A stretch of 64,000 nt of DNA, from sequence record NC_000866.4. The stretch is one strand, 5' to 3'. A program made the position numbers and the translations under genes. This document shows, piece after piece, positions 2,998-3,034 of this stretch. The notes below the pieces were generated by a model, which saw only the letters and a program-made list of their open reading frames with translations, was not told where the DNA came from and did no database searches. Every line of letters starts with the position of its first letter. The first letter of the stretch is position 1. This DNA is from Escherichia phage T4.

Positions 2998-3010
2998 AAT
3001 ACCTCCTAAG

Positions 3011-3031
3011 TATTTATAGAAGGTATTTATA
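3011..3031 (-). promoter_or_regulatory. two tandem late promoters (TATAAATA) upstream of e
   Basis: plus-strand TATTTATA at 3011..3018 and 3024..3031 = minus-strand TATAAATA, the exact T4 late-promoter -10 consensus, 14-34 nt upstream of the e start codon. Confidence 0.6.
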
Positions 3032-3034
3032 AAA

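What the first reader, a model, noticed from the sequence alone, without database searches (positions are those of the whole stretch)
2998..3034. Tandem late promoters in the short nudE-e spacer, with possible SD-sequestering pairing
Two TATAAATA boxes (3011..3018 and 3024..3031, minus strand) lie in the 37-bp spacer between nudE and lysozyme e. The proximal box would start transcription inside the AGGAGG Shine-Dalgarno and is probably non-productive; the distal one gives a ~20-nt leader. Upstream sequence ACCTC (3040s) can pair with GAGGT of the SD region, so early read-through message from nudE may hide the lysozyme ribosome-binding site while late message exposes it. That would delay lysozyme synthesis until late infection.
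Basis: partly seen in the sequence, partly recalled or inferred. Interest (0 to 1): 0.4.

Follow-up and report, generated by a model that had tools for sequence, protein, structure and literature searches.

The report
T4 lysozyme leader: known translational timing hairpin
This is the well-studied control region of the phage T4 lysozyme gene: early read-through RNA folds into a hairpin that hides the ribosome-binding site, and two late promoters inside that hairpin make RNAs that cannot fold, so it is real but already known.

Summary
Two exact TATAAATA boxes (3031..3024 and 3018..3011, minus strand) lie in the 37-bp spacer between nudE (3490..3035) and lysozyme gene e (2997..2503), upstream of SD AGGAGG (3007..3002). 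The 81 nt 3060..2980 are identical to a phage T4 record.

The general idea is right: the ribosome-binding site is hidden in early read-through RNA and exposed in late RNA. It is also already published for T4 gene e (McPheeters et al. 1986; reviewed in PMC3014915).

Two details are wrong.
- The SD does not pair with ACCUC at 3045..3041 (predicted pair probability 0.0004). It pairs with a 5' arm inside the spacer, 3033..3017, which overlaps the distal box. That arm pairs with 3008..2993 (SD plus AUG). The hairpin is -14.9 kcal/mol, z = -5.3, with core pair probabilities near 1.0.
- The proximal promoter is reported as productive, not dead. Its predicted RNA has the most open ribosome-binding site.

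Predicted cost of opening the site is about 15-16 kcal/mol in early RNA and 1.5-4 kcal/mol in late RNAs.

The design (late box overlapping the 5' arm) recurs in 15 distinct leaders from several Tevenvirinae genera. The second box occurs only in the T4/T2 group.

Verdict: real, ordinary, already known.

The parts
2503..2997 (-). gene e, T4 lysozyme (164 aa)
   Evidence: ORF. Pfam Phage_lysozyme. 162 of 164 residues identical to T4 lysozyme 2LZM.
2995..2997 (-). AUG start codon of e. It pairs with 3031..3029 in early RNA.
   Evidence: Pair probabilities 0.95-0.96.
3002..3007 (-). Shine-Dalgarno AGGAGG of e
   Evidence: P(unpaired) is 0.00 in early RNA and 0.85-0.95 for the first SD bases present in each late RNA (A3007..G3005 distal; G3005 or A3004 proximal).
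2993..3008 (-). 3' arm of the inhibitory hairpin (UAGGAGGUAUUAUGAA). It covers the SD, the spacer and the AUG.
   Evidence: strand folding (-14.9 kcal/mol, z = -5.27, 0 of 200 shuffles as stable)..
3009..3016 (-). 8-nt hairpin loop (UAAAUACU). It lies within the proximal TATAAATA box.
3017..3033 (-). 5' arm of the inhibitory hairpin (UUUAUAAAUACCUUCUA, with one bulged A among 3028..3026). It overlaps the whole distal late box and the first 2 nt of the proximal box. It is absent from both late RNAs.
   Evidence: core pair probabilities 0.99-1.00.
3024..3031 (-). distal T4 late promoter box TATAAATA
   Evidence: An (A/T)ATAAATA box at the equivalent place in all 15 distinct leaders compared.
3011..3018 (-). 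proximal T4 late promoter box TATAAATA
   Evidence: Present only in the Tequatrovirus-type leaders (window, L001-L004, L023, L032). It is degenerate in other genera.
3017..3018 (-). predicted start of the distal late transcript, giving a 20-21-nt leader
   Evidence: Inferred from the rule that the box lies at -13..-6 (PMC1524935). Mapped ends in the primary paper could not be read.
3004..3005 (-). predicted start of the proximal late transcript, inside AGGAGG. The RNA would begin with GAGGU or AGGU.
   Evidence: Same rule. Anti-SD duplex energies of -6.9 and -3.3 kcal/mol.
3035..3490 (-). nudE (e.1) Nudix hydrolase, the upstream early gene whose transcripts read into e
   Evidence: ORF. Pfam NUDIX. 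Annotations.
5938..6857 (-). candidate source of early read-through RNA: a strong minus-strand terminator at 6857..6834, followed by sigma-70-like sites at 6695..6667, 6358..6330 and 5966..5938. No minus-strand terminator-like site lies between there and e.
   Evidence: Consensus scan only, so this is inferred, not shown.

Best explanation
This is the translational timing switch of the phage T4 lysozyme gene.

Early in infection, host RNA polymerase starts at promoters well upstream and reads through nudE into e. In that RNA the segment 3033..3017 pairs with 3008..2993 to form a 16-17-bp hairpin with one bulged A and an 8-nt loop. The hairpin buries the Shine-Dalgarno sequence and the AUG, so 30S subunits cannot bind and no lysozyme is made.

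After replication starts, the gp55/gp33/gp45-modified polymerase uses the two TATAAATA late promoters. The distal box is itself part of the 5' arm. Its transcript starts at about 3018, at the 3' end of that arm. The proximal box forms the loop, and its transcript starts at about 3005, inside the SD. Both late RNAs therefore lack the 5' arm, cannot form the hairpin, and are translated.

What is shown here: the sequence, the fold, its statistical strength, its identity to T4 and its conservation. What comes from the literature: the early/late 5' ends and the translation difference. What is inferred: the exact +1 positions and the upstream early promoters in this window.
For: - The leader is identical to T4 over 3060..2980.
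- The hairpin is -14.9 kcal/mol with z = -5.27, and 0 of 200 dinucleotide shuffles fold as well.
- In early RNAs of 161 to 591 nt, the core pairs have probability 0.99-1.00 and the SD..AUG region has mean P(unpaired) of 0.012-0.018.
- Opening SD..AUG costs 14.8-15.5 kcal/mol in early RNA, 3.9 in distal-late RNA and 1.5 in proximal-late RNA.
- Late RNAs have no significant structure (z = +0.55 and +0.26).
- Among 69 SD-bearing ORF starts in the window, e has the highest opening cost, level with gene 1: 16.3 kcal/mol against a median of 5.2 and a 95th percentile of 12.4.
- Fifteen distinct e leaders, from records assigned to Tequatrovirus, Mosigvirus, Dhakavirus, Karamvirus, Gelderlandvirus, Mosugukvirus and Marfavirus plus unassigned IMG/VR contigs, all have an ATAAATA box directly abutting or overlapping the 5' arm of an SD-sequestering hairpin. 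These hairpins are -11 to -16.6 kcal/mol, with z from -1.9 to -6.3. In every case the predicted late +1 falls at or next to the 3' end of the 5' arm, or just inside the loop.
- Where the spacer after the SD cannot pair with AAUAC, the stem is extended on the loop side instead (CUCCUAUC/GAUAGGAG). L008 shows a double change, ACCCC/GGGGU.
- No terminator-like site lies between the upstream promoter-like sites and e.
- The review PMC3014915, section 29, describes exactly this mechanism for T4 e: a 100-fold reduction, two late promoters, and a structure demonstrated by McPheeters et al. 1986.
Against: - All structural evidence here is computational.
- The primary paper with the mapped 5' ends and structure probing could not be read, so the +1 positions of 3018 and 3005 rest on the -13..-6 rule.
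- Strict compensatory covariation is sparse because the SD core is invariant.
- The distal-late RNA keeps a weak mini-hairpin, AAUACUU/AGGUAUU, of -1.8 kcal/mol.
- If the proximal RNA starts at A3004, its SD is only AGGU, with an anti-SD duplex of -3.3 kcal/mol. The relative contribution of the two late RNAs is therefore not settled here.
Confidence: 0.93

Rival explanations
1. One reading: the SD (GAGGU, 3005..3001) is sequestered by ACCUC at 3045..3041, inside the end of the nudE coding sequence.
For: The two pentamers are complementary. Both late RNAs would also lack this partner.
Against: Predicted pair probability is 0.0000-0.0004 in early RNAs of 161-591 nt. Forcing the pairing gives -24.9 against -29.2 kcal/mol. 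The segment is translated by nudE ribosomes. ACCUC is absent at the equivalent place in other genera (for example L005 and L009), while the local hairpin persists.
Confidence: 0.02
2. The hairpin is a transcription terminator or 3'-end stabiliser for the nudE message, as the homologous hairpin is annotated in phage MM02, rather than a translational operator.
For: GenBank record MK373784 labels the homologous hairpin 'putative transcriptional terminator, -12.00'. It is a stable stem-loop just after a stop codon.
Against: No U-tract follows the stem (the tail is AUAUAUUUGAAAUG). The terminator scan does not list it. Its 3' arm is the SD and AUG of e in every lineage. The literature reports early RNA that extends into e.
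Confidence: 0.03
3. Only the distal box is a working promoter. The proximal TATAAATA is loop sequence that happens to match the consensus and yields no useful mRNA, which is the reader's 'non-productive' suggestion.
For: Only the distal box is conserved across genera. The equivalent loop sequence elsewhere is degenerate: TATAAACG, TATACTCA, TATATAAG. A start at 3005 or 3004 truncates the SD to GAGGU or AGGU, weakening the anti-SD duplex from -11.5 to -6.9 or -3.3 kcal/mol.
Against: The review states that transcripts from either of two late promoters were found and are well translated. The box is a perfect 8 of 8 match and is invariant in all Tequatrovirus-type leaders seen. The proximal RNA has the lowest opening cost.
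Confidence: 0.08

Closest known systems
Phage T4 gene e early-mRNA hairpin with two internal late promoters (McPheeters, Christensen, Young, Stormo and Gold 1986, Nucleic Acids Res 14:5813; summarised in PMC3014915)
   Same: Same gene, same neighbours, and an identical 81-nt sequence. Same hairpin over the SD and AUG, and the same two TATAAATA boxes. This is that element.
   Different: Nothing detectable in the leader. The lysozyme protein differs from the crystallographic T4 'wild type' at residues 12 (R instead of G) and 137 (I instead of R), which has no bearing on the leader.
Other T4 late-promoter and ribosome-binding-site-hairpin switches: soc, gene 49, I-TevI (td intron), I-TevII, I-TevIII, segB, and Aeh1 mobE (PMC3014915 section 29; PMC2988022 section 12)
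   Same: The same logic applies. Transcripts from upstream early or middle promoters fold over the ribosome-binding site, and a late promoter placed inside or next to the 5' arm gives an RNA that cannot fold.
   Different: These are different genes and sequences, and most are described with a single late promoter. The window itself holds one: the GIY-YIG ORF at 7918..7253, with CATAAATA in the 5' arm.
e leaders of other Tevenvirinae genera (Figure 5A of PMC3014915; loci L005-L031 here)
   Same: One (A/T)ATAAATA box overlaps the 5' arm, the SD lies in the 3' arm, and the spacer to the upstream gene is 26-37 bp.
   Different: These leaders have a single box, shorter loops of 4-6 nt, and in some genera the stem does not reach the AUG.

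Membership tests
T4 gene e translational timing hairpin (McPheeters 1986) | Located immediately upstream of a T4-type lysozyme gene e and downstream of nudE (e.1) | tested here: met
   Annotations.
T4 gene e translational timing hairpin (McPheeters 1986) | Leader sequence matches that of T4 | tested here: met
   81 of 81 nt identical to T4 record OZ209023.1.
T4 gene e translational timing hairpin (McPheeters 1986) | A stable stem-loop in upstream-initiated RNA that includes the SD and the AUG | tested here: met
   Prediction only. The hairpin is -14.9 kcal/mol with z = -5.27. Core pair probabilities are 0.99-1.00 and the pairs over the AUG 0.95-0.96. Opening cost is 15-16 kcal/mol.
T4 gene e translational timing hairpin (McPheeters 1986) | Late promoter(s) positioned so that late 5' ends lie 3' of the 5' arm | tested here: met
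   The boxes are at 3031..3024 and 3018..3011. With the box at -13..-6, +1 is 3018 and 3005. The 5' arm is 3033..3017. The +1 positions are inferred, not measured.
T4 gene e translational timing hairpin (McPheeters 1986) | Early transcripts from upstream promoters extend into e | tested here: inconclusive
   No minus-strand terminator-like site lies between 6834 and e, and promoter-like sites exist upstream. This is a consensus scan only. The literature affirms it for T4.
T4 gene e translational timing hairpin (McPheeters 1986) | Early RNA is not translated and late RNA is translated (about 100-fold difference) | not testable with these tools
   Literature only.
T4 late promoter (gp55/gp33/gp45-dependent) | An 8-bp TATAAATA at about -13..-6, with no -35 requirement, upstream of a late-expressed gene | tested here: met
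   Both boxes are exact. The consensus definition comes from PMC1524935 and PMC2988020.
T4 late promoter (gp55/gp33/gp45-dependent) | gp55-dependent initiation at the predicted +1 | not testable with these tools
   Needs RNA 5'-end mapping in wild-type and 55- infections.
Intrinsic (rho-independent) terminator | A G+C-rich stem followed directly by a U-tract | tested here: not met
   Not listed by the terminator scan. The tail after the stem is AUAUAUUUGAAAUG.
Curated Rfam RNA family | A match to any Rfam covariance model | tested here: not met
   0 matches at E <= 1 over 2400..3600. The element has no Rfam family, so this says nothing against it.

The most novel reading that the evidence does not exclude
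The proximal late promoter may be an innovation of the T4/T2 (Tequatrovirus) lineage, made by completing the hairpin loop into a full TATAAATA. It may also not be redundant. It would give an mRNA with a 5'-terminal minimal SD and a fully open ribosome-binding site (opening cost 1.5 kcal/mol). The ancestral distal promoter gives an mRNA with the full SD but a residual mini-hairpin (3.9 kcal/mol). The two late mRNAs might therefore differ in translation efficiency or stability, and so tune the amount or timing of lysozyme. The comparison across genera (one box everywhere else) supports the lineage-specific part. The functional part is untested.
Probability: 0.2. Interest if true: 0.25.

Novelty: already known. 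Interest (0 to 1): 0.08.

Why it matters
It is a classic example of gene timing set by where a transcript starts. The same DNA encodes a promoter and one arm of an RNA hairpin, so lysozyme, which could lyse the cell too soon, is made only late. Recognising it here confirms that the first-stage reader can pick out real regulatory sites from raw sequence. It adds no new biology. The only small additions are a quantified early-versus-late opening cost and the observation that the second promoter is confined to the T4/T2 group.

Tried and rejected
- I tried to read the primary paper (PMID 3526285, PMC311593) and the 2003 T4 genome review (PMC150520). None is held. The mapped 5' ends are therefore taken only at review level.
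- I tried to fetch the annotated T4 reference records NC_000866 and AF158101 for promoter features. Neither is in the collection. I used T4 record OZ209023.1 instead, which carries no promoter features.
- An Rfam scan of 2400..3600 gave no match.
- The MAFFT alignment of 14 leaders (A1) put the ACUCCUAUC-type and ACCUCCUA-type 5' arms out of register. I therefore did not run the count of structure pairs on it. I tabulated pairs anchored on the SD core from each sequence's own minimum-free-energy fold instead. That table leans towards structure and shows few true double changes.
- The terminator reading was tested and rejected.
- I considered whether ribosomes terminating at the nudE stop codon, 1 nt from the hairpin base, would open the hairpin. 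With 3055..3025 held single-stranded, an 8-bp core remains and opening the SD still costs 10.5 kcal/mol. Coupling is therefore unlikely. This is inference only.
- Two further literature searches for modern T4 5'-end maps found nothing usable.

Full report
**What is in the sequence**

On the minus strand the window reads ...CTC TTT TAA (nudE stop, 3037..3035) TTT TATAAATA (3031..3024) CCTTC TATAAATA (3018..3011) CTT AGGAGG (3007..3002) TATT ATG (2997..2995). The ORF list gives nudE at 3490..3035 and a 164-aa ORF at 2997..2503.

The downstream protein has the Phage_lysozyme domain and the upstream one the NUDIX domain. The lysozyme matches T4 lysozyme in the PDB at 162 of 164 residues.

Exact TATAAATA occurs 22 times in the window. 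Dinucleotide shuffles give 10.4 +/- 3.5, and none of 100 shuffles reaches 22.

**Where the window comes from**

The region matches hundreds of T4-like (Tequatrovirus) phage records at 93-99% identity, with nudE and e annotated. The 81 nt from 3060 to 2980 are identical to a phage T4 record, OZ209023.1. What has been shown experimentally for the T4 gene e leader therefore applies to this sequence directly.

**The structure**

Any RNA that starts upstream of the spacer folds into one dominant local hairpin.
- The 5' arm is 3033..3017 (UUUAUAAAUACCUUCUA), with one bulged A among 3028..3026.
- The loop is 3016..3009.
- The 3' arm is 3008..2993 (UAGGAGGUAUUAUGAA), which covers the SD, the spacer and the AUG.
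- As a 55-nt RNA it has -14.9 kcal/mol and z = -5.27, and 0 of 200 dinucleotide shuffles fold as well.

In partition-function calculations on early RNAs of 161, 301 and 591 nt, the core pairs have probability 0.99-1.00. The pairs over the AUG have probability 0.95-0.96. The mean probability that SD..AUG is unpaired is 0.012-0.018.

Forcing it costs 4.3 kcal/mol.

**Late RNAs**

The T4 late consensus TATAAATA lies at -13 to -6 (PMC1524935; PMC2988020). On that rule the distal promoter starts at about 3018, which leaves only two nucleotides of the 5' arm. The proximal promoter starts at about 3005, inside AGGAGG. RNAs starting at these points show no significant structure (z = +0.55 and +0.26).

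| RNA | Cost of opening SD..AUG (kcal/mol) |
|---|---|
| Early read-through | 14.8-15.5 |
| Distal late | 3.9 (keeps a weak AAUACUU/AGGUAUU mini-hairpin of -1.8) |
| Proximal late | 1.5 |

The proximal RNA keeps GAGGU if it starts at G3005 (anti-SD duplex -6.9 kcal/mol) or AGGU if it starts at A3004 (-3.3). The full site gives -11.5.

**Is it more than chance?**

I scanned 69 SD-bearing ORF starts in the window with the same procedure. Gene e has the highest opening cost, level with gene 1, at 16.3 kcal/mol. The median is 5.2 and the 95th percentile is 12.4.

**Comparison with relatives**

I collected e leaders from IMG/VR contigs and from GenBank phages of several Tevenvirinae genera. This gave 15 distinct sequences. 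In every one:
- an (A/T)ATAAATA box directly abuts or overlaps the 5' arm of a hairpin whose 3' arm holds the SD;
- the hairpins are -11 to -16.6 kcal/mol as 45-nt RNAs, with z from -1.9 to -6.3;
- the predicted late +1 falls at or next to the 3' end of the 5' arm, or just inside the loop.

The SD core is invariant, so classic compensatory changes are few. One example is ACCCC/GGGGU in L008. The stem is nonetheless maintained by different means. Where the spacer after the SD cannot pair with AAUAC, the helix is extended on the loop side (CUCCUAUC/GAUAGGAG).

The second, proximal box is found only in the T4/T2-type leaders. Elsewhere the loop holds a degenerate remnant such as TATAAACG or TATACTCA.

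**Upstream context**

On the minus strand a strong terminator-like hairpin lies at 6857..6834. Several sigma-70-like sites follow it. No terminator-like site lies between them and e. This fits early read-through but comes from a consensus scan only.

With a ribosome modelled at the nudE stop codon (3055..3025 held open), an 8-bp core remains and opening the SD still costs 10.5 kcal/mol. Termination of nudE translation should therefore not unmask e. This is inference.

**What is known**

The review by Uzan and Miller (PMC3014915, section 29) makes the following points.
- Early transcripts extending into T4 gene e form an inhibitory structure, citing McPheeters et al. 1986.
- This reduces lysozyme synthesis 100-fold.
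- Related T4-type phages have similar leaders, each with a late promoter in the region encoding the 5' strand.

The same design is described for soc, gene 49, I-TevI/II/III, segB and Aeh1 mobE. The finding is thus the textbook element itself. I could not read the primary paper, so the exact mapped 5' ends are not verified here.

**Verdict**

Nothing here is new. The only small additions are the computed opening costs and the note that the tandem second promoter is confined to the T4/T2 lineage. Rfam has no family for it. One GenBank record labels the homologous hairpin a terminator, which the absence of a U-tract argues against.

Noticed in passing
window 7253..7918 (-), leader about 7960..7915: A 221-aa GIY-YIG endonuclease ORF, probably segB, has the same design as e. 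The hairpin is GAACAUAAAUACUCUUAG...AUAGGAGAUAUUUAUGUUC, over the SD and AUG, with a variant late box CATAAATA forming the 5' arm. Opening cost is 15.7 kcal/mol, third of 69. The review mentions T4 segB as an implicated case.
   Followed up: partly
window 10649..11374 (-), leader about 11415..11370: Gene 1 (dNMP kinase, Pfam DNMK, E = 3e-107) has its SD and AUG inside a strong nested hairpin (GUGUGUU...AAACACAUG, with an inner stem over GAGG). Opening cost is 16.3 kcal/mol, level with e. No TATAAATA lies just upstream, and a TATAAT-like hexamer lies in the 5' arm. I did not check whether this is a known translational control.
   Followed up: no
window 2503..2997 (-), codons 12 and 137: The lysozyme differs from the crystallographic 'wild-type' T4 lysozyme (2LZM and others) at two residues: R12 instead of G, and I137 instead of R. 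From memory, the T4 genome and UniProt reference sequence carries R12 and I137, so this may simply be the genomic reference allele.
   Followed up: partly
L026 256..279 (MK373784.1, phage vB_EcoM_MM02): The public record annotates the homologous e-leader hairpin as a 'putative transcriptional terminator, -12.00'. It overlaps the SD of e and has no U-tract, so this is probably a misannotation.
   Followed up: partly
L005-L031, 40 nt upstream of e: Outside the T4/T2 group only one late box is present. The loop holds degenerate box-like sequences (TATAAACG, TATACTCA, TATATAAG). The spacer between the upstream gene and e is always 26-37 bp. In Gelderlandvirus CGG4-1 the upstream gene is not nudE but a small hypothetical ORF.
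   Followed up: partly
window 13349..13371 and 52450..52461: Two places have late boxes on opposite strands, back to back or overlapping (13349+ with 13364-, and 52450- with 52454+). They serve divergent ORFs (13385+ with 13337-, and 52479+ with 52428-). Their ribosome-binding sites show above-median opening costs of 9.4-11.8 kcal/mol, because the palindromic box region folds on itself.
   Followed up: no
window 6834..6857 (-): A strong terminator-like hairpin, AGCCCCGACCGAAAGGTTGGGGCT followed by TTTTT (10 pairs, 7 of them G-C), is followed downstream by several sigma-70-like sites. It probably marks the boundary of the early transcription unit that reads into nudE and e.
   Followed up: no
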